In this document: positions 4,026 through 57,483 of the stretch, piece by piece | Layout of the letters: each line of letters starts with the position of its first letter | Numbering within the stretch: the first letter of the stretch is position 1 | Origin: Thermomicrobiales bacterium | GTDB lineage: Bacteria; Chloroflexota; Chloroflexia; Thermomicrobiales; UBA6265 | Assembly (NCBI GenBank): GCA_039809985.1 | Contig: JBDHWC010000001.1 | Location: 14,988-78,987, forward strand | Length of the DNA stretch: 64,000 nucleotides | Reading direction: 5' to 3' | The notes under the pieces: generated by a model | Databases searched by the model: none | Told to the model about the DNA's origin: nothing | Seen by the model: the letters and a program-made list of their open reading frames with translations, nothing else | Position numbers and translations under genes: made by a program

Positions 4026-4301
4026 GCCGGCACTTGAAGGGCATCCCAACCACTCCTCGCCCTTCTTTCCTTTGTCACTCTGCAGCGCGGCGAGGGTCTC
4101 GACGAGTCGTGCCCCATCACGGGTGTGAACGCTGGGCGACGACGTGCCCCGAGACCGAACCGGTCTGCCCGACGCTGCCAAGGTGGTTGATGTCCAGTCG
4201 GATCGCAGCTCCCCCCTGCCTCGCTCCACTCATGGCAACGAGCGACCGGTCGGCAGGGATGCGCCCACGCTCGCGCTCCGGTGACAGACGGAGGGACTCG
4301 G

Positions 4302-6203
4302 TTGTCCGTTGACGAAGCGGTGGAACAGCAAGCGCCCGAGACGCCAGTCGTGAAGCGGCCGGCAACGCGCCGGAGCCCGCGAGCCAAGAAAGCCGACGCG
4401 CCCACGGCCACCGCGGGCGATCCGGTCGCGTCGACCGGACCGGAGACGGCCGTGGCCGCGACGGCGCCGGCCGAGCCGGTCGTGGCCGAGGTTGCCACTG
4501 CGGAGCCGCCGGCCGCGCTTCCCGAGGTTCCGGAGTCGGTTCTGGCACTCGCGGAGCGAGTGACGGCACCGGCGAGCGCGGTTCCCTCCGCGCCGTCGGC
4601 TGAAGCGTCCGGGACGTCGGGCGCGCAGCCTGACCGTGCGGAGTCGGACGCCCGCACGAACGGGCACCCGGCGAACGGTGCGCGGACCGCTGAGGAACTG
4701 CGCGACGCCGAGGCGGTGATGGCCCAGCTGGAGAGGCCGGCGGAGTTCGGGCAGCGTTCCAGCCGCAACGACCGTCGGCATCGGCGCGACCGGAGCCGGA
4801 ACGACGGCGACCGGCCCGGGAACGGTCAGGAGCAGCGCTACGGGCCGCGTCCCGACGGGCGCGGCGGCCCACAGGGTCAGGATCGCCAACCGCGGCCTCA
4901 GCACCAGCAACCTTCACCGCGGGAGGTGCACCCGCAGAGGAGCGGGCCGCCGCACCTGACGATTACCGAGCTGCAGGCGAAGTCGCAGGAAGAGCTGTTC
5001 GAAATCGCGCGCGGGTTCGAGCTCACGGGCTACAGCCGCCTGCCGCGGCTCGAGCTCGAGATCAGGATCTTGCGGGCGCAGGTTGAGAAGGACGGCCAGC
5101 ACTTCGGCGACGGCGTCCTCGAGATCATCGAGGACGGGTTCGGCTTCCTGCGCGGACCACGATTCCTGCCGGGACCGGACGACATCTACGTCAGCCAGTC
5201 CCAGATTCGCCGGTTCGGGCTGCGGACGGGCGACCGGGTTTCGGGCCAAGTCCGGCCGCCGAAGGACAGCGAGAAGTTCTACAGCCTGATCCGGGTCGAG
5301 TGCGTTAACGGGATCGATCCCGAGACGGCTCGCCGCCGACCGTCGTTCGACACGCTGACCCCCATCTTCCCGCTGGAGCTGCTCGACCTCGAGACGCAGC
5401 CGAACATCCTCTCGACGCGCTTGCTGAACCTCGTCGCGCCGATCGGCAAGGGCCAGCGCGGACTGATCGTCTCGCCGCCGAAGGCGGGCAAGACGATGCT
5501 GCTGAAGTCGATCGCCAACGGCATCACGACGAACTGCCCGGACGTTCACCTGATGGTCTGCCTGATCGGCGAGCGGCCCGAGGAAGTGACCGACATGCGG
5601 CGGTCGATCGACGGGGAGGTGATCTCCTCCACGTTCGACGAGCCGGTCGAGGACCACACCAAGGTGGCCGAGATGGCGCTGGAGCGCGCCAAGCGGCTGG
5701 TCGAGGGCGGGCGCGACGTCGTGATCCTGCTCGACTCGATCACCCGGCTGGCGCGCGCCTACAACCTCGCGGTGCCGCCGAGCGGGCGGACGCTCTCCGG
5801 CGGCATCGACCCGGTCGCGCTGTACCCGCCGAAGCGGTTCTTCGGCGCGGCCCGGAACATCGAGGGGGGCGGCAGCCTGACGATCGTGTCGACCTGCCTG
5901 ATCGACACCGGCAGCCGAATGGACGACGTCATCTACGAGGAGTTCAAGGGCACCGGCAACATGGAGCTGCACCTCGACCGCAAGCTGGCCGAGCGTCGCA
6001 TCTACCCCTCGATCGACGTCCAGCGCTCCGGCACACGGCGCGAAGAACTGCTGCTCGACGAGTACTCCCTGAAACAGGTTTGGACGATGCGGAGGATGGT
6101 CTCGATGCTGGGTGGCAGCGAGGGCACCGAACTCCTCCTCAGCCGTCTCGCCAAGACGTCGACGAATGCCGAGTTCCTCGACACGTTGAACAAGGACGTC
6201 TGA
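4302..6203 (+). CDS. rho: Transcription termination factor Rho with ~217-aa low-complexity N-terminal extension
   Basis: Conserved core from [18 protein letters not shown], with [17 protein letters not shown] (RNA-binding domain) and Walker [12 protein letters not shown]. The in-frame ORF opens at GTG 4281. I prefer TTG 4302 because GGAGGG (4290-4295) lies 6 nt upstream. Confidence 0.9.
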
Positions 6204-18005: not shown

Positions 18006-19481
18006 TCACCGCATGGTGGACGGCAGGATGCCCAGCTCGGCCCGGTACTTGGCGACCGTGCGGCGGGCGATGCGAATGCCCTGGTCGAGCAGCAGGTCGC
18101 AGATGCGGCGGTCGGTGAGGTGCTCGCCGTTGCGCGTCTCGCGTTCGATCAGTTCCTTGATCACGTCCTTCGTGCTGAGCGACGGGGTGAAGAAATCGCT
18201 GAACGGCACGACGCGTCGGGAGGGGAGCATGACGTACTTGTTCGCGGTCGCCCGGCTGACGGTCGACTCGTGGACGCCGACGTGCTGGGCGACGACGGCC
18301 CGGGTGAGCGGGCGAAGCTCGCGCACGCCGCCGCGCAGGAAACTCTCCTGCAGGTCGCAGACGCAGCGACTGATCTTCAACAGCGTCTCGCGGCGTTGCT
18401 GGATGTTGGCGATGAAGAGTCTGGCCCGGCTCGTCGACTGGCGGACATGGGCCCGGTCCTCGTCGGAGACGAGCGCGGGCGCGGGCGCGACGGCCGTGGA
18501 CGTGGCGACGTGGTGGCCGTTCGGCGAGGGTGGTTCGGCTCCCCTGCGCTTGCCTAGCTCGGAGGCGAGCGAGCCGTAGAGCCCGTTCAGCTTGAGGTGG
18601 AAGTCGCGACTGTCGACGACCTCGACGACGAGCTCGTCGTCACGGAGGGCGATGATGACGTCGGGGGCAACGTACGGGGATGCGGTCGGCGTGCGCCATG
18701 ACCGGTTGGAGGCCGACTGCAGCGGGTGGGGGCTGAGGTGCTCGCGGATGAAGTCGCGGGCGGCGTCGATCTCCTCCGGCTGCAGGCCGAGTTCCTTGCT
18801 GATCAGCCCGAACCGATGCGCCCCGAACTCCGCCAGGAAGCGCTCGACGATCTGCTCGACCTGCCACGGGACCTCGTGGCCGAGACGCTTGAGGTAGGCG
18901 ATCTGGAGCAGGAGGCACTCCTGCAACGTCCGCGCCCCGACGCCGACCGGGGCAACCTCCTGGATGGCAGTGACAACGCTGTCGATCTCGGTTCGGCTGC
19001 GGCGGGTGATGCGGGCGAGCTCGTCGAGGTCGCAGCCGATCAGACCGCGCTCGTCCAGCGAGTCGACGAGGTACTCGGCGATCGGGTGGTCGGCGGGGTC
19101 GAGCACCGAGCGGGCGTCGAGGAGGATCTGCTCGCGGACATCCTCGCCTTGGGCGACCAGCGTCAGCGGGTCGAAGTCATCGGAGTCTTCCGCGGTCGAG
19201 TGGGCCGTGACCATCACCTCGGGGAAGTCCTCGAAGTTCTCGGACGGCTGGTCGCGGCGGTGGCTGACCAGGCAGACCGGGCAGAACGCCCCGTCGAGCA
19301 TCGTGCCGCATTGCGGGCAGACGGGCCGGTCGTCGAGTTCGAGGGCGGGGTTGGCATCCATCTCGGCCGCGATCACGGCCTGCAGTTCGAGCCGGGACAG
19401 ACTCAGGATGTAGTTGGCTTCGATCAGGCTGGGCGAGACCCACGTCCGCATGTCCTGACTGAGTTCGAACCCCGATTCCAT
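18006..19481 (-). CDS. rpoN: RNA polymerase sigma-54 factor
   Basis: 491 aa from MESGFELSQDM. Region I-like L..S..ELQAVIAAEMDANPALE, core-binding region, and a C-terminal RpoN box ARRTVAKYR. SD AGAGGGGA upstream. Confidence 0.9.
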   Translation of the reverse strand: MESGFELSQDMRTWVSPSLIEANYILSLSRLELQAVIAAEMDANPALELDDRPVCPQCGTMLDGAFCPVCLVSHRRDQPSENFEDFPEVMVTAHSTAEDSDDFDPLTLVAQGEDVREQILLDARSVLDPADHPIAEYLVDSLDERGLIGCDLDELARITRRSRTEIDSVVTAIQEVAPVGVGARTLQECLLLQIAYLKRLGHEVPWQVEQIVERFLAEFGAHRFGLISKELGLQPEEIDAARDFIREHLSPHPLQSASNRSWRTPTASPYVAPDVIIALRDDELVVEVVDSRDFHLKLNGLYGSLASELGKRRGAEPPSPNGHHVATSTAVAPAPALVSDEDRAHVRQSTSRARLFIANIQQRRETLLKISRCVCDLQESFLRGGVRELRPLTRAVVAQHVGVHESTVSRATANKYVMLPSRRVVPFSDFFTPSLSTKDVIKELIERETRNGEHLTDRRICDLLLDQGIRIARRTVAKYRAELGILPSTMR

Positions 19482-19569
19482 GAACGGTTCCCCTCTGACC
19501 CACGAACTGGCGCGGCGGCCGTGGCGCGCGTGGTCGTGCCGCCGGCTCCCGGCGTTGCGGTGGCAACGC

Positions 19570-19584
19570 TGGCAAGATTCTTGC
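19570..19584 (+). promoter_or_regulatory. Sigma-54 -24/-12 promoter-like element (TGGCAagattcTTGC), pointing toward the M50/CBS protease gene
   Basis: Matches TGGCAC-N5-TTGCW with exact GG-N10-GC spacing. Confidence 0.45.
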
Positions 19585-19602
19585 GATACTCCGAGCTCAC
19601 CA

Positions 19603-19618
19603 TGCAAGAACCATGCCA
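19603..19618 (-). promoter_or_regulatory. Sigma-54 -24/-12 promoter-like element (TGGCAtggttcTTGCA on the - strand), pointing toward rpoN
   Basis: The reverse complement of 19603-19618 reads TGGCATGGTTCTTGCA with exact GG-N10-GC spacing. It lies ~120 nt upstream of the rpoN start codon. Confidence 0.45.
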
Positions 19619-19810
19619 CGTTCCACGTCCGCGCGCCTCCGGCGGCACGGTGGCCCGTTCGTCCTGCGTGTACATTCAAGACCGGGATTGCTATGCTGTT
19701 TCATGGAATCGGTCTCGTTTGCGACGGCGCAACGGTCGAACGGCGCACGTTCCGGGCGGACAGTTCGTCGAAGAGGCTCCGGTCGTGCGACGAGTCGGCG
19801 AAGGCGGACG

Positions 19811-20971
19811 ATGGGATCACTGACGATCGCCAACCTGCTCGGGGTCGACATCCGGCTGCACCCGTCGTTCGCGCTGGTGCTGGCGTGGGTGCTCGTCGAC
19901 TGGCGCGACTTCGGGTGGACCACCAGCCCGGCGCAGATGGCGGTCGCGGCGGCGACGATCGTGCTGGTGTACGGGTGCGTGCTGCTGCACGAGATGGGGC
20001 ACGCGCTGGTCGCCCGTGAGCACGGGATTCGGGTTCAGGACGTGACGCTGTCGGCCATCGGCGGCGTGGCAAGGATGGAGAGCCTGCCGCTGCGGCCCCG
20101 GATCGAGGTGGCGATCGCCCTTGCCGGGCCGGGGATGAACGTGGCGGTCGCGGCGGCGATGCTGCCGCTGGTTCTGATCGCGGGCGTTGCGCTGGGGTTC
20201 AACGGGCTGGACGACTATGTGCTGCGGGCGTTCGACCCGTCGCTCAGCGGGTTGCTCATCGGGCTCTTCTTCTCCAATCTCGTGCTGATGCTCTTCAACC
20301 TGCTGCCGGCGTTCCCGATGGACGGCGGCCACGTGCTTCGCGCCGGCCTCATCCCCGTCGTCGGGCGGGAGCGGGCAACGAAGGTCTCGGTCCGGGTGGC
20401 GCAAGTCTTGGCGGCGGCGATCGCGCTGGTGGCGATTGTTGAGTTCCGCAACCCGTGGCTAGTGTTGCTGGCGCTCCTGCTGGCCGGTCTGGCGCAGGCC
20501 GAGGGCCGGGCAGCACGGATCGAGTCGGCGATGCGCCGAATGCGGGTCGGCCAGTTCGCGCTCTGGGACATGGGCGGCGTCCCGCCCGACCAGCCGATCG
20601 CCTACGCCTTGCGGGACGGCCCACGGGACGTGGCGGTGACGCGCAACGGGGCGGTCGTCGGCATCCTCTGGCGCAACACCCTGCTGAACGAACTCTCAAG
20701 GAATGGCCACCACCGGACAGTGGGGGAGATCGCTTCCGAGCCTTCGGTGCTGGCCAACGTCGACGAGTCGGTCTTCGACGTCCACCAGCGGATGGTGGCC
20801 AACAAGGCGTGGGCGGTGCCGGTGGTTGAGGACGGGGTCTACCGCGGCATCTTCACGGCGGACCGGTTCTTGCATGTTTACCGGCAACTCGCGCCGAACC
20901 CGCTCGAGATCGCGTTGAGCAGCGGGCCGCTCGAGGCATTGCGGGGCGTGGTGCGGTCGCTGGCGAGCTGA
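19811..20971 (+). CDS. Site-2 (M50) family zinc metalloprotease with C-terminal CBS domain pair
   Basis: HEMGHALVA (HExxH), NLLPAFPMDGGHVL, multiple TM segments, and a C-terminal CBS-like region. Start chosen at MGSLTIANLLG. Confidence 0.85.
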   Translation: MGSLTIANLLGVDIRLHPSFALVLAWVLVDWRDFGWTTSPAQMAVAAATIVLVYGCVLLHEMGHALVAREHGIRVQDVTLSAIGGVARMESLPLRPRIEVAIALAGPGMNVAVAAAMLPLVLIAGVALGFNGLDDYVLRAFDPSLSGLLIGLFFSNLVLMLFNLLPAFPMDGGHVLRAGLIPVVGRERATKVSVRVAQVLAAAIALVAIVEFRNPWLVLLALLLAGLAQAEGRAARIESAMRRMRVGQFALWDMGGVPPDQPIAYALRDGPRDVAVTRNGAVVGILWRNTLLNELSRNGHHRTVGEIASEPSVLANVDESVFDVHQRMVANKAWAVPVVEDGVYRGIFTADRFLHVYRQLAPNPLEIALSSGPLEALRGVVRSLAS

Positions 20972-21003
20972 GACGTTGGACGTCTGCTGCAGCGGTGCCG
21001 CGG

Positions 21004-21032
21004 TTGACCCCGCCATCGGCAGGGACTAGGAT
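21004..21032 (+). promoter_or_regulatory. Sigma-70-type promoter candidate for the Rrf2/desulfurase operon (TTGACC-N17-TAGGAT)
   Basis: TTGACC at 21004-21009 and TAGGAT at 21027-21032, ~37 nt upstream of the ATG at 21069. Confidence 0.45.
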
Positions 21033-21068
21033 GACCACAAATCCGCCGACGCTCGCAGGCCGTGAGTC

Positions 21069-21530
21069 ATGAAGGTTTCCACTCGAGGCGAGTACGGCGT
21101 CCGCGCCATGGTTGCGCTGGCGAAGAACTACGGCAATGGCCCGATGTCGATTGCCGCGATCTCGCGTGCTTCCTCGATCCCGACCGCCTACCTTGAGCAA
21201 CTGATCGGCCCGTTGCGCCGCGCCGAGCTCGTGGAGAGCAAGCGCGGGGCACAGGGCGGGTACTTGCTCGCGCGCGCGCCGGAGCTGATCCGGGTCGGGG
21301 ATGTCTACCGGGTCATGGAAGGCCCGGTGGCGCCGATGGACTGCGTTTCCGAGGACGAATCCCAGCAGACCTGCCCGCTGATCGACGGGTGCGAGACGCG
21401 CCCGGTCTGGCTGCGCATGCGTGACGCGATCACCGACGCACTGGACTCCATCACGCTGCAGGACCTGATCGACGGCAGCCCTCGCCACGCGATGATGCTG
21501 GGCCACGTGCTGCCGGGGGCATCGGCCTAG
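21069..21530 (+). CDS. Rrf2-family transcriptional regulator (IscR/CymR-like)
   Basis: MKVSTRGEYGVRAMVALA...SIAAISRASSIPTAYLEQLIGPLRRAELVESKRGAQGGYLLA (wHTH). Three Cys occur in MDCVSEDESQQTCPLIDGCE, consistent with a cluster-ligating Rrf2 protein. Confidence 0.9.
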   Translation: MKVSTRGEYGVRAMVALAKNYGNGPMSIAAISRASSIPTAYLEQLIGPLRRAELVESKRGAQGGYLLARAPELIRVGDVYRVMEGPVAPMDCVSEDESQQTCPLIDGCETRPVWLRMRDAITDALDSITLQDLIDGSPRHAMMLGHVLPGASA

Positions 21531-21603
21531 GCGCGCGGCGTGAGGCGACGCGTTGGCGCTCGCCCCGCCGGGCCGCCCGGCGAATCTGATCGGAGACCTC
21601 CAA

Positions 21604-22803
21604 GTGAGCCCTCTCGCCTCGGGCGACGACACCATCTACCTCGACCACGCCGCGACCACCCCGGTTGACCCCGAGGTGCTGGCGGCGATGCTGCCGTACT
21701 TCAGCGTGCGGTTCGGCAATCCGTCGAGCATCTACCAGCTCGGACAGGAAGCGCACGCCGTGCTCGACGCGGCGCGGGCCTCCGTGGCGCGCGTGCTCGC
21801 CTGCCAGCCCGGAGAAGTGCTCTTCACCGGCGGCGCGACGGAGTCGAACAACCTGGCGCTGCGGGGAGTCGCCTGGCAGGCGCGGCTCTCCGCCGCACCG
21901 GGGTCTCGGCCGCCGCACCTCGTGACCACCCAAATCGAGCATCACGCCGTGCTGACCACGGCCGAGGCGCTTGCGCAACTCGGGTTCGACGTCACCTTCG
22001 TCCCCCCAGACGCCACCGGCATCGTCGATCCGGCGGCGATCGCGGCGGCGTTGCGCCCAGAGACGTGCCTGGTCTCCGTGATGTACGCGAACAACGAGAC
22101 CGGCGCAATTCAGCCGGTGGCCGAGATCGGGCGTATCGCCCGCGCCGCCGGCGTGCCGTTCCATGTCGATGCCGTGCAGGCCGCCGGGCTGCTGCCGCTG
22201 GCCGTGGACGAGGTCGGGGCCGACTTGTTGTCGCTCTCGGCCCACAAGTTCTACGGACCGAAGGGGGTTGGCATCCTCTACCTGCGGCGCGACACCCCGA
22301 TCTCGTGGCAGCAGACCGGCGGCGGGCAGGAGCAAGGCCGGCGCGGCGGCACGGAGAACGTGCCGGGGATCGTCGGTCTGGCGGCCTCGCTCGAGAAGTG
22401 CGAGCGGCTGCGGACCGAGTACGCCAGCCGCTGCGCAGAACTGCGCGACCGGTTGTGGGACGGTATCCGGTCGGCGGTGCCGGACGTGGCCCTGAACGGT
22501 CCGCCGTTCGGTTCGGGGCGGCTGCCAAACAACCTGAACCTCGAGATTCCGGGGGTTCAGGGCGAGACGCTGCTGCTTGGTCTCGACATGGAGGGCGTCG
22601 CCGCGTCGGCGGGCTCGGCCTGCACGACGGGCAACAGCGAGCCGAGTCACGTCCTGAAAAGCATGGGACTGAGCGACGCCCGGTGCCGCACCAGCCTCCG
22701 CCTGACGGTTGGTCGCAGCAACACCGCCGACGAGATGGACGAGGCGGCCGACATCCTGGGCGAGGCCGTGGCCCGGACGCGCGCGCTGGCCGGGGTGTCC
22801 TAG
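21604..22803 (+). CDS. Cysteine desulfurase (NifS/IscS family)
   Basis: YLDHAATTP, PLP-lysine motif SAHKFYGPKG, and active-site SAGSACTTG. The ORF opens at TTG 21553. I prefer GTG 21604, which has GGAG 8 nt upstream. Confidence 0.9.
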   Translation: MSPLASGDDTIYLDHAATTPVDPEVLAAMLPYFSVRFGNPSSIYQLGQEAHAVLDAARASVARVLACQPGEVLFTGGATESNNLALRGVAWQARLSAAPGSRPPHLVTTQIEHHAVLTTAEALAQLGFDVTFVPPDATGIVDPAAIAAALRPETCLVSVMYANNETGAIQPVAEIGRIARAAGVPFHVDAVQAAGLLPLAVDEVGADLLSLSAHKFYGPKGVGILYLRRDTPISWQQTGGGQEQGRRGGTENVPGIVGLAASLEKCERLRTEYASRCAELRDRLWDGIRSAVPDVALNGPPFGSGRLPNNLNLEIPGVQGETLLLGLDMEGVAASAGSACTTGNSEPSHVLKSMGLSDARCRTSLRLTVGRSNTADEMDEAADILGEAVARTRALAGVS

Positions 22804-53732: not shown

Positions 53733-56048
53733 TCAGTCCCCCGCCCGCGATTGCGACACGCTCGCGTCGCGGCGGACCTCGTAGACGTCGCGGACGCCTT
53801 CCAGCTTCTGGAGGATGCGGCTCAGCTTGCTGATCCCCTCGACCTCGACCGTGGCGAGCAGCGTGACCGTGCGGTCGTCGTGCGTGGTCGTCAGGACCGA
53901 GACGATGTTGACCTTGTCGTCGGCGAGGAGCGTGCTGACGTCCTTCAGCAGGCCGACCCGATCCCAGGCACGAACCCGGATGGTGACCGGGAAGGTTTCC
54001 TCGCCGCGGTCGCCCCACGTCACCGCGATCAGCCGTTCGGGGTCGTTGAGGCCGGTGACGTTCGGGCAGTCTTGCCGGTGGACGGTGATGCCGCGGCCGC
54101 GGGTGACATAGCCGATGATCTGGTCGCCGTTGACCGGCTTGCAGCAGGTGGCGAGATTGGTCAGCAGGTCGCCGACGCCGAGCACTTGGAGGCGAGCGGG
54201 CGTGCGCGGCACCTCGATGTTCGGGGCCGGGACGAGGACGTCCTTCTCGCGGTTGAGGTCGAGCCGGGTGGCGATTTGCTGCGGCGAGACCGCGCCGTAG
54301 CCGATCGCGGCTAGGAAGTCGTCGAGCTTGCCGTACTGCGGGAAGACCTTGAGGATCTCCTCCGGCCGGAGGTCGAGACTGAGCCGACGCAGCTCTCGCT
54401 CGAGGATTTCCTTGCCTTGGCTGATGTTCTCGTCGCGCTCCTGGCTGCGGAACCAGCGGCGAATCTTCTCCCGGGCGGAGGCGGTGGTGACGTACTCGGA
54501 GGAGGCGAGGAGCCAGTCGCGGCTGGGTCCGACCTTCGACTTGCTGGTCTGGACCTTGACGACCTGGCCGTTCTGCAGCTTGTAGTTGAGCGGCACCATC
54601 TGGTCGTTGACCCGGGCCCCGACGCAGCGGTGGCCGACCTCGGTGTGGATGCGGTAGGCAAAGTCGACCGGCGTCGCGCCCGAGGGCAACTCGATGATGT
54701 CGCCGTCGGGGGTGAAGACGTAGATCATCTCTTGGAAGACGTCGGACTTGAGCGACTCGACGAATTCCTCGGCGTCGGCGACCTGATCGCGCCAGTCCAT
54801 CAGTTGTCGCAGCCAGGCGACCTTGGCCTCGACGCGCGCGTCGACCTTGCCGCCTTCCTTGTAGCGCCAGTGGGCGGCGACGCCGTACTCGGCGATGCGG
54901 TGCATCTCGTAGGTGCGGATCTGGATCTCGATCGCACGCCCCTCCGGCCCGATCACCGCGGTGTGGAGCGACTGGTAGAGGCTTTCCTTCGGGGTGGCGA
55001 TGTAGTCGTCGAACTCGCCGGGGATCGGGTGCCACATGGCGTGGATGATGCCGAGCGCGCCGTAGCAGTCCTTCCGGTCCTCGACCAGCACCCGGAGGCC
55101 GATCACATCGTAGATCTCGTCGAGGCTGCGGTGCTTCTGGAGCATTTTGCGGTAGATCGAGTAGATGTGCTTCGTCCGGCCGGTGATCTCGGCGACGATG
55201 CCGGCGGATTCGAGCGCGCCCTTCAGCTCCGCCTGAACCGCGGCCATGTACGGCTCGCTGTCCTTCGCGCGCTTGGCGAACTCGGCGCTGAGCGTCGACC
55301 ACGCGTCAGGCGTGATGTAGCGAAAGGCGAGGTCCTCGAGCTCGGACTTGACCTGCCAGATGCCGAGACGGTTGGCGAGCGGCGCGTAGATCTCCGCGGT
55401 TTGCTGCGCGATGCGCAACTGCTTGTGCGGCGGCAACGCTTCGAGGGTGCGCATGTTGTGGAGGCGGTCGGCCAGCTTGATCAGTACCACGCCGATGTCG
55501 TCGACCATCGCCAGGAACATCTTGCGGAGGCTCTCGGCTTGGTTCGCCTTCTCGCGCGAGGCGGCGGTCGACCCGTCGTCGCTGGTCCAAGGCAGGCGAC
55601 CGAGCTTGGTGACGCCGTCGACGAGCTTGGCGATCCGTGGGCCGAACATCGCCTCGATCTGGGGAAGGGTCGCCGCGGTGTCCTCGACGGTGTCGTGCAG
55701 CACCCCGGCGGCGATCGTCTCCGGGTCCATCTGCATCTTGGCGAGGATCTTGCCGACCTCGATCGGGTGGACGACGTAGGGTTCGCCCGACTTCCGGAGG
55801 TCGCCGTCGTGGGCAGAGATGGCGAAGTCGACCGCTCGCCGCACGACGTCCGTCTGCTGGCCCGCAGGGAGGTCGTCACAGAGGGCGACCAGCTCGTCCG
55901 CCAGCAAGCGCACAGACAGCGGCACCACGGTTGCCGTCTCGTCGATCGGCACCGCGACCAACTGAGGTTCTGGAGGTGCGTCACGCTTTCGCTTGCGGGC
56001 CATGGATGGTGTGCTGCTCGGGGTTGCCATGCGCCCCCGGTCACTCAT
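53733..56048 (-). CDS. relA: Bifunctional (p)ppGpp synthetase/hydrolase (RelA/SpoT homologue)
   Basis: HD domain (SGEPYVVHPIEV, HDTVEDT), synthetase domain (YRSLH-type SLYQSLHTAV), TGS (VFTPDGDIIELP) and C-terminal ACT. The start is uncertain (ATG 56048, 56030 or 56003). The 960-aa ORF is an upstream extension. Confidence 0.9.
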   Translation of the reverse strand: MSDRGRMATPSSTPSMARKRKRDAPPEPQLVAVPIDETATVVPLSVRLLADELVALCDDLPAGQQTDVVRRAVDFAISAHDGDLRKSGEPYVVHPIEVGKILAKMQMDPETIAAGVLHDTVEDTAATLPQIEAMFGPRIAKLVDGVTKLGRLPWTSDDGSTAASREKANQAESLRKMFLAMVDDIGVVLIKLADRLHNMRTLEALPPHKQLRIAQQTAEIYAPLANRLGIWQVKSELEDLAFRYITPDAWSTLSAEFAKRAKDSEPYMAAVQAELKGALESAGIVAEITGRTKHIYSIYRKMLQKHRSLDEIYDVIGLRVLVEDRKDCYGALGIIHAMWHPIPGEFDDYIATPKESLYQSLHTAVIGPEGRAIEIQIRTYEMHRIAEYGVAAHWRYKEGGKVDARVEAKVAWLRQLMDWRDQVADAEEFVESLKSDVFQEMIYVFTPDGDIIELPSGATPVDFAYRIHTEVGHRCVGARVNDQMVPLNYKLQNGQVVKVQTSKSKVGPSRDWLLASSEYVTTASAREKIRRWFRSQERDENISQGKEILERELRRLSLDLRPEEILKVFPQYGKLDDFLAAIGYGAVSPQQIATRLDLNREKDVLVPAPNIEVPRTPARLQVLGVGDLLTNLATCCKPVNGDQIIGYVTRGRGITVHRQDCPNVTGLNDPERLIAVTWGDRGEETFPVTIRVRAWDRVGLLKDVSTLLADDKVNIVSVLTTTHDDRTVTLLATVEVEGISKLSRILQKLEGVRDVYEVRRDASVSQSRAGD

Positions 56049-56238
56049 GCAATCGTCACGATCATCAACGGTGGCGCGGGGAGTGTATGCGACCGTGAGA
56101 GGCCCGGTCAATCGGAACCGTGAGCGGAGGTCCCGGTCGTCGCGACGGCCGCGACGGGGATCGCCCTCGACCCAGCGTGCTAGCATCGACTGACGATGCG
56201 ACGGCCGTGTACCGATCCGGAGAAGGGTTGCGCCGGGG

Positions 56239-57483
56239 ATGCCTGACCAGAACCTGGACCGACTGTTCCAGCCCGACGAAGTGCGGACGATCATCGCGCG
56301 CCACGATCGGAGGCTGGGCACGGAAGAGGTGGCCTTGAGTGAGGCGTCCGGTCGCGTTCTGGCGGTCGACCTCGTCGCCGACGAGGACCATCCGCCGTTC
56401 CGGGCGGCGACGATGGACGGGTTCGCCGTGGTCGCGCACGACGGTTCGCCGTGGCGCGAGATCATCGGCGAGCAGACGGCCGGCTTCGTGCTGGACGTCG
56501 AGGTGACCCCCGGCACGGCTGTGCGGATCACCACCGGGGCGCCCGTGCCCGCCGGCGCGGACGCGGTTGTCAAGGTTGAGGCGACCGAGCCGGCCGAGCA
56601 GAACCACGTCGTCATCCTGCAGGAGGACGTCGAGGACGGCGAGAACGTCCGGCAGGTCGGGGCCGACCTGCGGCGCGGCGATGTCGTCGTGCCGGCCGGG
56701 GTCCGACTCGGCCCGGCGGAACTCGGCCTGGCCGCGGGGCTCGGCGCGAACCCGCTGCCGGTGAGTCAGCGGCCGCGCGTCAGCATCCTGTCGACCGGCG
56801 ACGAGCTGGTGGAGCCCGGATCACCGGTTGGGCCGGGCCAAATCTACGACGCGAACCGATTCAGTCTGATTGCCGCGGTTAAGCAGGCTGGAGCGGAGGT
56901 CATCTGGGCCGGCAAGGGGCCGGACGAATTGGCAGCCCTGCGGGACGTGCTCCGGGAGCGGATCGCCGCCAGCGACGTGGTGCTGACCAGCGGCGGCGTG
57001 TCGATGGGCGAACTCGACCTGATCAAGCCGTTGCTCGGCGAACTGGCGACGGTGCACTTGCGCCGCGTGTTCATGAAACCGGGCAAGCCGCTGAACTTCG
57101 CGACGGCGGGCGAGACGCGCATTTTCGGCCTGCCCGGCAACCCGGTTTCGGCGCTGGTGGCGTTCGAGGTGTTCATTCGGCCGATGTTGTTGCGAATGAC
57201 GGGCGCGACCGAGACGGAACGCCCGGTCGTGCCCGTCCGTCTCGCCCAGCCTGCCGATCCGGCAGACCGGATCGAGTACCAGCGGGCCGTGGTCGAGGTC
57301 GGCGCTGACGGCATGCTGACGGCCCGGACCAACGGGCTGCAGGCGTCGTCGCGGCTGGCGTCCTTCCTCGGGGCGAACGCGCTCCTCATCGTGCCGCCGC
57401 GCGAGCGCGTGTACGAGCGAGGGGAGAACCTCCACGCCATGCTGCTCAGCACGCCACGGCAGGCGGACGCCCGCTCGAACTGA
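56239..57483 (+). CDS. moeA: Molybdopterin molybdenumtransferase MoeA
   Basis: EDHPPFRAATMDGFAV, ILSTGDEL, SGGVSMGELD, FGLPGNPVSA. Confidence 0.9.
   Translation: MPDQNLDRLFQPDEVRTIIARHDRRLGTEEVALSEASGRVLAVDLVADEDHPPFRAATMDGFAVVAHDGSPWREIIGEQTAGFVLDVEVTPGTAVRITTGAPVPAGADAVVKVEATEPAEQNHVVILQEDVEDGENVRQVGADLRRGDVVVPAGVRLGPAELGLAAGLGANPLPVSQRPRVSILSTGDELVEPGSPVGPGQIYDANRFSLIAAVKQAGAEVIWAGKGPDELAALRDVLRERIAASDVVLTSGGVSMGELDLIKPLLGELATVHLRRVFMKPGKPLNFATAGETRIFGLPGNPVSALVAFEVFIRPMLLRMTGATETERPVVPVRLAQPADPADRIEYQRAVVEVGADGMLTARTNGLQASSRLASFLGANALLIVPPRERVYERGENLHAMLLSTPRQADARSN

What the first reader, a model, noticed from the sequence alone, without database searches (positions are those of the whole stretch)
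19570..19618. Two face-to-face sigma-54 -24/-12 promoter-like elements directly upstream of rpoN
The + strand at 19570-19584 reads TGGCAagattcTTGC. The - strand (complement of 19603-19618) reads TGGCAtggttcTTGCA. Both fit TGGCAC-N5-TTGCW with the exact GG-N10-GC spacing. They lie in the 329-bp divergent region between rpoN (- strand, start 19481) and the M50/CBS protease gene (+ strand, start 19811).

The - strand element would start transcription near 19592, giving a ~110-nt leader to rpoN. That implies sigma-54-dependent, and so autoregulated, rpoN expression. The + strand element would start near 19596, ~215 nt before the protease gene.

The two elements point at each other 18 bp apart, so two holoenzymes could not occupy both at once. 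I checked by eye every other TGGCA/TGCCA I could find in the window. None had TTGC at the correct spacing.

There is an alternative reading. The two arms form a 13/15 inverted repeat. That could be an operator for a dimeric regulator, or an RNA hairpin with a 19-nt loop.
Basis: partly seen in the sequence, partly recalled or inferred. Interest (0 to 1): 0.6.

Follow-up and report, generated by a model that had tools for sequence, protein, structure and literature searches.

The report
Conserved sigma-54 sites controlling rpoN itself
The two motifs are real and conserved sigma-54 polymerase sites in front of the sigma-54 gene of a Thermomicrobiales bacterium, and comparison with about 80 relatives suggests sigma-54 both switches on and limits its own gene, a known kind of feedback in a new layout and phylum.

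Summary
TGGCAAGATTCTTGC (19570-19584, +; S1) and TGGCATGGTTCTTGC (19604-19618, -; S2) are the only exact TGGCA-N6-TTGC matches in 64 kb. They lie between rpoN and an M50/CBS protease gene.

In about 77 Thermomicrobiales rpoN loci, S1 is nearly universal. It follows rpoN, not the protease gene. In 60 of 77 loci its TGGCAA is the reverse complement of the -35 hexamer TTGCCA of a near-consensus housekeeping promoter for rpoN (TTGCCA-17/18 nt-TATACT). This points to sigma-54 holoenzyme occluding its own gene's promoter.

S2-type sites aimed at rpoN occur in about half the loci, 50-93 bp from S1. In the window's own clade the -10 box is gone. There S2 sits a fixed 16-18 bp from S1, so the two predicted start sites (19592 and 19596) cross and share one melting region.

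The hairpin, dimeric-operator and chance readings are not supported. Activator proteins (bEBPs) are common in the order. Canonical sigma-54 promoters occur before another gene in close relatives.

No start site, binding or activator site has been shown. I judge it a new variant of known rpoN autoregulation, of moderate interest.

The parts
19570..19585 (+). S1: sigma-54 -24/-12 site TGGCAAGATTCTTGCG, pointing away from rpoN. GG is at 19571-19572 and GC at 19583-19584. The predicted start is ~19596 (+).
   Evidence: Exact consensus match. An orthologous site is found in nearly all of 77 loci, with T76 G77 G77 C75 A72 ... T76 T76 G77 C77 (GG and GC were required by the search). It is kept whether or not M50 is the neighbour.
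19603..19618 (-). S2: sigma-54 -24/-12 site TGGCATGGTTCTTGCA, aimed at rpoN. GG is at 19617-19616 and GC at 19605-19604. The predicted start is ~19592 (-), giving a leader of ~111 nt.
   Evidence: It is conserved in all 7 species of the window's clade and in 2 further metagenome relatives, 16-18 bp from S1. Analogous rpoN-directed sites lie 50-93 bp from S1 in ~30 other loci.
19586..19602 (.). 17-bp spacer holding both predicted start sites (19592 - and 19596 +). It is inferred to be the shared melting region of the two interlocked promoters.
   Evidence: Its length is fixed at 16-18 bp across the clade. Its sequence is not conserved, differing at about 7 of 17 positions (my count from the alignment) even from a relative whose rpoN is 92% identical.
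19482..19591 (-). Predicted rpoN 5' leader from S2. It contains the complement of S1.
   Evidence: Inference from the -12 position. I found no TA dinucleotide between S1 and the ATG when reading the sequence, so no TAnnnT -10 box. The best sigma-70-type score in the last 330 nt is 7 of a maximum 14.
18006..19481 (-). rpoN (sigma-54), 491 aa, with the RpoN box ARRTVAKYR.
   Evidence: Pfam AID, CBD and DBD domains. Translation. Homologues are Thermomicrobiales and Chloroflexota.
19689..19697 (+). Extended -10 promoter element TGCTATGCT for the M50/CBS gene (-10 TATGCT at 19692-19697). A -35-like TGTACA lies at 19669-19674.
   Evidence: Apart from S1 and S2, this is the only conserved block in the intergenic alignments. 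It reads TGnTATnnT in the window's clade (with one TGCAATGCT variant, L058) and TGATATCAT or TGATATGAT in most of a distant clade. It keeps this form in the 92% relative.
19811..20971 (+). M50 site-2-type metalloprotease with a CBS domain, the divergent neighbour of rpoN.
   Evidence: Pfam. It is the divergent neighbour in about 65 of the 80 related loci.

Best explanation
Both motifs are binding sites for sigma-54 RNA polymerase, and together they form the control region of the sigma-54 gene itself.

**S1 (19570-19585, +)** is an ancient site found across the order Thermomicrobiales. In most relatives it lies antiparallel on the -35 hexamer of a near-consensus sigmaA promoter for rpoN: TTGCCA is the complement of TGGCAA, and it is followed by 17-18 nt and then TATACT. 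Sigma-54 holoenzyme sits on DNA as a silent closed complex until an activator acts. Bound at S1, it would therefore block the housekeeping polymerase and hold down its own synthesis. This is negative autoregulation by promoter occlusion.

**S2 (19603-19618, -)** is an activator-dependent sigma-54 promoter aimed at rpoN, which would form a positive loop.

**In the window's clade** the sigmaA -10 box has been lost. S2 sits a fixed 16-18 bp from S1. The two -12 elements are then 20 bp apart. The predicted start sites (19592 and 19596) cross, and the two sites would melt the same DNA. Only one polymerase can use the region at a time. rpoN would be transcribed from S2, and a polymerase bound at S1 would compete with that.

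S1 may also fire toward the M50/CBS, Rrf2 and cysteine desulfurase genes. Those genes have their own extended -10 promoter.

**Shown:** the motifs, their conservation, the overlap with the sigmaA promoter in relatives, the loss of the -10 box and the fixed spacing in this clade, and the presence of activators in the order.

**Inferred:** binding, start sites, occlusion, and which activator acts.
For: - **Rarity.** These are the only two exact motif matches in 64 kb.
- **S1 is conserved.** It is found in nearly all of 77 loci, with the sigma-54 pattern: TGGCA and TTGC nearly fixed and the spacer variable.
- **Enrichment.** The motif is about 39-fold denser upstream of rpoN than in the rest of the fetched DNA.
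- **Overlap with a sigmaA promoter.** 60 of 77 loci read AGCAAGAnnC[TTGCCA]-17/18 nt-TATACT (or TATAAT) on the rpoN strand. A simple sigma-70 scan recovers this as a top-scoring promoter (best or tied best) in all five relatives outside the window's clade that were scanned.
- **S1 does not depend on its -35 role.** It is kept in the window's clade, where no -10 box exists and the -35 box decays to CTGCCA in 4 of 7 species. It becomes the canonical TGGCAC or TGGCAT where the -10 box is displaced (L036, L039, L060).
- **S1 follows rpoN, not M50.** It is present when the upstream gene is a co-directional alpha/beta hydrolase (L053, L063, L074) or MoeA.
- **S2 is conserved.** It lies at 16-18 bp in 7 clade members and 2 extra relatives, with a diverged spacer, and at 50-93 bp in ~30 other loci.
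- **The protein is canonical.** The window's sigma-54 has the RpoN box.
- **Activators exist.** NtrC-type bEBPs with GAFTGA are common in Thermomicrobiales, and one lies next to rpoN in L073.
- **The motif is used elsewhere.** A canonical sigma-54 promoter lies 55-83 nt before a small conserved gene in L005, L008, L011 and L013.
- **Precedents.** Sigma-54 represses when its site overlaps another promoter (PMC4591121, citing Zafar 2014). Both negative autoregulation of rpoN and sigma-54-dependent rpoN2 are known in rhizobia (PMC3538637).
Against: - There are no transcription start, ChIP or footprint data for any of these organisms.
- No conserved activator binding site was found near either element.
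- There is no bEBP gene in the 64-kb window, and the rest of this genome was not available.
- S1 usually has A rather than C after TGGCA and is partly palindromic (GCAAG-N3-CTTGC), so another protein could also bind it.
- Having only a sigma-54 promoter for rpoN raises a start-up problem. A weak sigmaA promoter that I could not recognise in 69% G+C DNA is not excluded.
- In the window itself the occlusion target (the sigmaA promoter) is absent, so the negative arm rests on steric reasoning about two head-to-head sites.
Confidence: 0.6

Rival explanations
1. One reading: two independent sigma-54 promoters. S2 drives rpoN. S1 exists mainly to drive the divergent M50/CBS protease operon. Their closeness matters only because they cannot fire together.
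For: S1 points at the M50 gene, which is the divergent neighbour in about 65 of the 80 related loci. The motif quality is as good as for S2.
Against: S1 is kept, with the rpoN sigmaA promoter, where the upstream gene is a co-directional hydrolase or MoeA. Its position is fixed relative to the rpoN -10 box (17-18 nt), not relative to M50. M50 has its own conserved extended -10 promoter about 100 nt before its ATG. S1 would leave a 215-nt leader. This reading is not exclusive of the best explanation, because S1 could do both.
Confidence: 0.2
2. S1 is the operator of an unknown dimeric regulator (palindrome GCAAG-N3-CTTGC) lying next to or over the -35 box of the rpoN promoter. Its likeness to a sigma-54 site is coincidental, and in the window's clade the two arms form a composite operator.
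For: GCAAG and CTTGC are both well conserved in S1. S1 has A rather than the usual C at position 6. The site overlaps a sigmaA -35 box, a common place for repressors.
Against: Conservation is asymmetric. TGG is fixed on one side only, and T or G sits on the other. Where the site is free of the -35 role it moves toward TGGCAC or TGGCAT rather than toward symmetry. S2 sites in the other clade are not palindromic but keep TGGCAC-N5-TTGCG. Arm-to-arm distance varies from 16 to 93 bp, or the second arm is absent. The palindrome occurs nowhere else in ~470 kb of related DNA. The location, beside the sigma-54 gene, would be a remarkable coincidence.
Confidence: 0.1
3. The inverted repeat forms an RNA hairpin (15-bp stem, 19-nt loop) in the rpoN or M50 leader and acts after transcription.
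For: The repeat folds better than shuffled sequence: -17.2 and -24.7 kcal/mol, with z = -2.9 and -3.9.
Against: There is no covariation. 7 of 15 pairs never vary and 6 depart only by mismatches, and the score is no better than for slid controls. There is no Rfam match even at E = 1. In other clades the arms are 50-93 nt apart or one is missing. If either site is a promoter, neither transcript contains both arms.
Confidence: 0.03

Closest known systems
Negative autoregulation of rpoN in Proteobacteria (Rhizobium leguminosarum rpoN as cited in PMC3538637; R. etli rpoN1 and Bradyrhizobium japonicum rpoN2 from my own recollection of Michiels 1998 and Kullik 1991, which were not held)
   Same: Sigma-54 lowers expression of its own gene. 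The gene otherwise has a non-sigma-54 promoter.
   Different: Those cases rest on genetic evidence in Proteobacteria. Here there is only sequence evidence, in Chloroflexota. The proposed operator is a full antiparallel -24/-12 site lying on the -35 hexamer, conserved across an order.
Occlusion of a sigma-70 promoter by sigma-54 holoenzyme at overlapping promoters (E. coli crl; Zafar et al. 2014, as cited in PMC4591121)
   Same: A transcriptionally silent sigma-54 closed complex blocks an overlapping housekeeping promoter.
   Different: The target here is rpoN itself, which makes it a feedback loop. In the window's clade the blocked promoter is another sigma-54 promoter, not a sigma-70-type one.
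Sigma-54-dependent rpoN genes (R. etli and Mesorhizobium loti prxS-rpoN2 activated by NifA, PMC3538637; Geobacter sulfurreducens and PSSM predictions in several classes, PMC12316311)
   Same: A -24/-12 promoter lies upstream of, and is aimed at, an rpoN gene, implying positive autoregulation.
   Different: In the rhizobia the case is a second, specialised rpoN copy expressed with help from a first. Here only one rpoN was seen in the DNA examined, and the copy number in the whole genome is unknown. In this clade no other promoter is recognisable. It is paired with a second, opposed sigma-54 site. Chloroflexota were not in that survey.
Convergent or face-to-face promoter pairs causing transcriptional interference (PMC6593788 as a general reference)
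   Same: Two opposed promoters are close enough to interfere with each other.
   Different: Here the predicted start sites have crossed by 4 bp. The RNAs would not overlap. Interference would come from competition for one melting region rather than from collision or antisense pairing.

Membership tests
sigma-54 (-24/-12) promoter or binding site | GG and GC dinucleotides exactly 10 bp apart within TGGCAC-N5-TTGCW | tested here: met
   S1 is TGGCAAGATTCTTGCG and S2 is TGGCATGGTTCTTGCA.
sigma-54 (-24/-12) promoter or binding site | The consensus positions, and not the spacer, are conserved in orthologous regions | tested here: met
   S1 in nearly all of 77 loci. S2 in 37 loci at high score. Spacers are variable.
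sigma-54 (-24/-12) promoter or binding site | The organism encodes sigma-54 with an RpoN box | tested here: met
   rpoN at 18006-19481 has Pfam AID, CBD and DBD domains and ARRTVAKYR.
sigma-54 (-24/-12) promoter or binding site | The genome encodes at least one bEBP (AAA+ with GAFTGA) | tested here: inconclusive
   None in the 64-kb window, and the rest of the genome is unavailable. bEBPs are abundant in Thermomicrobiales, and one lies beside rpoN in L073.
sigma-54 (-24/-12) promoter or binding site | An activator binding site (UAS) roughly 80-150 bp upstream | tested here: inconclusive
   No conserved block or shared 7-mer besides S1, S2 and the M50 -10 element. Poorly alignable sites could be missed.
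sigma-54 (-24/-12) promoter or binding site | Transcription starts about 12 nt downstream of GC and depends on sigma-54 | not testable with these tools
   No transcript data are available.
sigma-54 occlusion of an overlapping sigma-70-type promoter | The sigma-54 site overlaps core elements of a sigma-70-type promoter | tested here: not met
   Not met in the window: there is no -10 box at the required spacing, and the best sigma-70-type score in the last 330 nt is 7 of a maximum 14. It is met in 60 of 77 relatives (TTGCCA-17/18-TATACT). The window is therefore a derived form, not a member in the strict sense.
sigma-54-dependent rpoN (positive autoregulation) | A -24/-12 promoter upstream of rpoN, oriented toward it, at a workable distance | tested here: met
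   The predicted S2 start is 111 nt before the ATG, and the site is conserved in the clade.
structured RNA hairpin | Compensatory changes keep the stem paired | tested here: not met
   no covariation above controls; no Rfam match.
palindromic operator of a dimeric regulator | Symmetric conservation and fixed half-site geometry across relatives | tested here: not met
   The flanks are asymmetric (TGG against T/G). The arm distance is 16-93 bp or the second arm is absent.

The most novel reading that the evidence does not exclude
In the window's clade the sigma-54 gene has given up its housekeeping promoter. It is transcribed only from a sigma-54 promoter that is interlocked, start site across start site, with a second, opposed sigma-54 site. 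Sigma-54 levels would then be set by a self-sustaining loop that must be inherited from the mother cell. The loop is switched on by an activator and capped by competition between two polymerases for one melting region. The same switch may choose between making sigma-54 and making the M50/CBS protease operon.
Probability: 0.25. Interest if true: 0.75.

Novelty: new variant of a known kind. Interest (0 to 1): 0.55.

Why it matters
Sigma-54 is the one bacterial sigma factor that binds promoters silently and needs an ATPase to fire. How cells set its own level is known only from a few Proteobacteria. This finding gives an order-wide comparative case in Chloroflexota, a phylum where sigma-54 biology is essentially unstudied.

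It points to three things:
- Sigma-54 polymerase may be used as a repressor of its own gene, through a site laid antiparallel over the -35 box.
- There is an apparent evolutionary swap of a housekeeping promoter for a sigma-54 promoter.
- Two sigma-54 sites are interlocked at a fixed spacing and share a melting region, a geometry I have not seen described.

It also yields testable predictions in at least one culturable relative, Nitrolancea hollandica, and gives a first view of the sigma-54 promoter consensus in this order.

Tried and rejected
- **Rfam.** Nothing was found in the whole window at gathering thresholds, or in the intergenic region at E up to 1.
- **tRNA scan.** Nothing found.
- **Sigma-70 and terminator scan of 19300-19950.** Nothing at the tool's thresholds. 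My own looser scan found no credible rpoN sigmaA promoter in the window's clade.
- **Hairpin.** It folds well but shows no covariation, so I rejected it.
- **Search for a conserved activator site.** Shared 7-mers in the clade gave only G+C-rich low-complexity words.
- **bEBP motif scan.** None in the window.
- **Other 1-mismatch motif hits in the window.** Those at 55739 and 55920 lie under the long open reading frame 53733-56615 (-), not checked as a gene, so I dropped them. I did not examine 34806.
- **Longer M50 reading frame starting at 19613, which would cover S2.** Rejected, because homologues align from residues 1-11 of the 386-aa form.
- **Longer rpoN frame starting at 19679.** Rejected, because homologues start at MESG.
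- **Papers on the mechanism of rhizobial rpoN autoregulation and on crl occlusion.** Michiels 1998, Dombrecht 2002 and Zafar 2014 are not held. They are cited only through papers that cite them.

Full report
**1. The observation**

19570-19585 (+) is TGGCAAGATTCTTGCG, which I call S1. The reverse complement of 19603-19618 is TGGCATGGTTCTTGCA, which I call S2.

The gene on the - strand, 18006-19481, is rpoN. It has the Pfam Sigma54 AID, CBD and DBD domains and the RpoN box ARRTVAKYR. The + strand gene, 19811-20971, is a Peptidase_M50 protein with a CBS domain.

TGGCA-N6-TTGC occurs only at these two places in the 64-kb window on either strand. Shuffles give 0.18 expected.

**2. Source and relatives**

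The closest rpoN proteins all come from Thermomicrobiales and other Chloroflexota metagenome genomes. The window is 69% G+C.

I fetched 80 rpoN loci from species-representative genomes of this order and three closer metagenome contigs. The M50/CBS gene is the divergent neighbour of rpoN in about 65 of the 80 loci.

**3. S1 is conserved across the order and belongs to rpoN**

An S1 orthologue, pointing away from rpoN, is present in nearly all of 77 usable loci, usually 90-250 nt before the ATG.

Base counts over the 77 sites, in S1 orientation:

| Position | Counts |
|---|---|
| TGGCA | T76 G77 G77 C75 A72 |
| next two bases | A65 G65 |
| spacer | three variable bases |
| CTTGC | C67 T76 T76 G77 C77 |
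| last base | T58 / G16 |

(the search that picked these sites required GG and GC, so those four columns are fixed by construction)

Conservation is asymmetric. TGG is fixed on one side only. That fits a -24/-12 site and not a symmetric operator.

The relaxed motif TGGCA-N7-TGC occurs 109 times in the 53 kb upstream of rpoN. It occurs 22 times in the other ~415 kb of fetched DNA.

**4. The twist: S1 overlies a housekeeping promoter for rpoN**

Read on the rpoN strand, S1 is AGCAAGAnnC[TTGCCA], followed by 17 or 18 nt and then TATACT (or TATAAT, TATAGT, TACACT, TAGACT). This holds in 60 of 77 loci.

That is a near-consensus sigmaA (sigma-70-type) promoter for rpoN. Its -35 hexamer is the exact complement of the -24 element TGGCAA. 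A simple sigma-70 scan recovers it as a top-scoring promoter (best or tied best) in the five non-clade-C loci scanned.

S1 is not merely that -35 box, for four reasons:
- The 10 bases upstream of the -35 box, which form the -12 half of S1, are equally conserved.
- In L036, L039 and L060 the -10 box lies ~28 nt away. There the element reads TGGCAC or TGGCAT, the canonical sigma-54 form.
- In the window's clade there is no -10 box, and the -35 box decays to CTGCCA in four species. TGGCA...TTGC is still kept.
- S1 and the sigmaA promoter are kept where the upstream gene is a co-directional alpha/beta hydrolase (L053, L063, L074) or a divergent MoeA gene. S1 therefore follows rpoN, not M50.

**5. 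S2**

A high-scoring site aimed at rpoN lies on the far side of S1 in 37 loci. It reads TGGCA(C/T)-N5-(T/C)TGC(G).

On a neighbour-joining tree of the sigma-54 proteins the patterns sort into clades:

| Clade | Members | Architecture |
|---|---|---|
| A | Sphaerobacter-, Nitrolancea- and Thermomicrobiaceae-like; sigma-54 of ~470 aa | mostly S1, the sigmaA promoter, and S2 50-93 bp away |
| B | many lineages | S1 and the sigmaA promoter; no S2, or only degenerate traces at 55-83 bp |
| C | window, L005, L008, L010, L013, L030, L058; monophyletic | S1, and S2 only 16-18 bp away; no -10 box |

Two further metagenome relatives show the clade C arrangement.

In the relative whose sigma-54 is 92% identical, S2 is identical and S1 differs at one spacer base. 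By my count from the alignment, the 17-bp gap differs at about 7 positions but keeps its length. Across the clade the gap sequence is unalignable while its length stays at 16-18 bp. The rest of the intergenic region is full of insertions and deletions.

Within clade C the S1 and S2 spacers resemble each other (G-G/A-T-T-C). S2 there may have arisen as an inverted copy of S1. This is an inference.

**6. Geometry in the window**

I take the C of GC as position -12.
- S1 would start transcription at ~19596 (+).
- S2 would start at ~19592 (-).

The start sites cross by 4 bp. The two -12 elements are 20 bp apart. Both complexes would melt the same ~10 bp. Each promoter lies at about +8 to +26 of the other's transcript, and the two RNAs would not overlap.

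Simultaneous use is sterically implausible. This is an inference from what is known of polymerase footprints.

I found no TA dinucleotide between S1 and the rpoN ATG when reading the sequence. There is no credible sigma-70-type promoter within 330 nt. S2 is the only conserved candidate promoter for rpoN in this clade.

**7. The protease gene has its own promoter**

The only other conserved block in the intergenic alignments is an extended -10 element on the M50 strand. In the window it is TGCTATGCT at 19689-19697. It has the form TGnTATnnT in six of the seven clade C sequences (L058 reads TGCAATGCT), and reads TGATATCAT or TGATATGAT in most of a distant clade.

S1 is therefore not needed to express M50, although it could add to its expression.

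**8. Is the sigma-54 system complete?**

- There is no bEBP gene in the window.
- NtrC-type response regulators with PF00158 and GAFTGA are numerous in Thermomicrobiales.
- One lies next to rpoN in L073.
- In L005, L008, L011 and L013 (three of them in clade C), a canonical TGGCA(C/T)-N6-(C/G)TGC site lies 55-83 nt before a small conserved gene that starts MSYPYPEDRTREKR.

The motif is therefore used in ordinary promoter geometry in close relatives.

**9. Rival readings**

*Hairpin.* The repeat folds well. However, 7 of 15 pairs never vary and 6 depart only by mismatches. Covariation is no better than for slid controls. Rfam finds nothing. In other clades the arms are far apart or one is absent.

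*Dimeric operator.* Conservation is asymmetric, the distance between arms varies, and S2 sites in clade A are not palindromic. The palindrome occurs nowhere else in ~470 kb of related DNA.

*Chance.* Excluded by the conservation.

**10. Mechanism proposed**

The ancestral state is a sigmaA promoter for rpoN whose -35 box is covered by an antiparallel sigma-54 site. Holoenzyme binding in its silent closed form would occlude the promoter, giving negative feedback. An optional upstream sigma-54 promoter would give positive, activator-dependent input.

The window's clade has the sigmaA promoter replaced by S2, interlocked with S1.

Sigma-54 is reported to repress when its site overlaps another promoter (PMC4591121, which cites Zafar 2014). 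Negative autoregulation of rpoN and sigma-54-dependent rpoN2 are both known in rhizobia (PMC3538637). A 2025 PSSM survey predicts sigma-54 promoters at rpoN in several classes but contains no Chloroflexota (PMC12316311). Sigma-54 and its activators were noted in only some Chloroflexi in 2011 (PMC3162934).

Binding, start sites, the activator and any effect on expression are all untested.

**11. Verdict**

This is a real, conserved regulatory feature. The main corrections:
- S1 is an rpoN-linked autoregulatory site of ancient origin.
- The window shows a derived, interlocked two-site form.

I rate it a new variant of a known kind, with interest 0.55. My confidence in the overall explanation is 0.6. 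It is higher, about 0.8, for the narrower claim that both are genuine sigma-54 holoenzyme sites.

Noticed in passing
window 19272-19319 (-), sigma-54 residues 55-70: The sigma-54 protein carries a four-cysteine motif (CPQCGTMLDGAFCPVC) between the activator-interacting and core-binding regions. C55, C58, C67 and C70 are invariant in 16 Thermomicrobiales sigma-54 proteins. No Pfam domain covers it. It may be a zinc ribbon, which I have not seen described in sigma-54.
   Followed up: no
L005:~4241-4296, L008:~5863-5928, L011:~5943-6026, L013:~5659-5724 (all - strand of the locus): A small conserved gene starting MSYPYPEDRTREKR... is preceded at 55-83 nt by a canonical sigma-54 motif in all four loci that carry it. 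It is a likely sigma-54 regulon member close to rpoN. It is not present in the window.
   Followed up: partly
window 19811-22803 (+): The M50/CBS gene is followed on the same strand by an Rrf2-family regulator gene (21069-21530) and a class V aminotransferase or cysteine desulfurase gene (~21604-22803) (mapped from L002). This is probably one operon. A CBS-bearing M50 protease kept beside a sigma factor gene recalls SpoIVFB and pro-sigmaK, but nothing here tests a link.
   Followed up: no
L073:1-1138 (-) and L073:1471-1487: An NtrC-type bEBP (REC plus AAA+ with GAFTGA) lies upstream of rpoN. A perfect palindrome TGGCACGCCGTGTGCCA sits just before a 232-aa reading frame. It could be read as a sigma-54-like site on either strand, or as an activator site.
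   Followed up: partly
window 19554-19567: An inverted repeat GTTGC-GGTG-GCAAC lies directly beside S1 in the predicted rpoN leader. It creates a second TGGCAA 9 bp upstream of S1. It lacks a GC at the sigma-54 spacing, and I did not check it in relatives beyond the 92% one, where it is partly kept.
   Followed up: no
L006, L075, L023, L028, L083, L025, L060, L081 (rpoN upstream regions): Degenerate S2-like sequences lie 55-83 bp from S1 in clade B loci. Examples are TGGCACAGAACGGGCT and TGGTACCAAGATTGCG. They may be decaying remnants of an ancestral rpoN-directed sigma-54 promoter.
   Followed up: partly
L017 and L041, 45 nt before the annotated rpoN start: S1 lies only 45 nt before the matched start, and there is no -10 box. 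The true start codon or promoter layout in these two genomes probably differs from the others.
   Followed up: no
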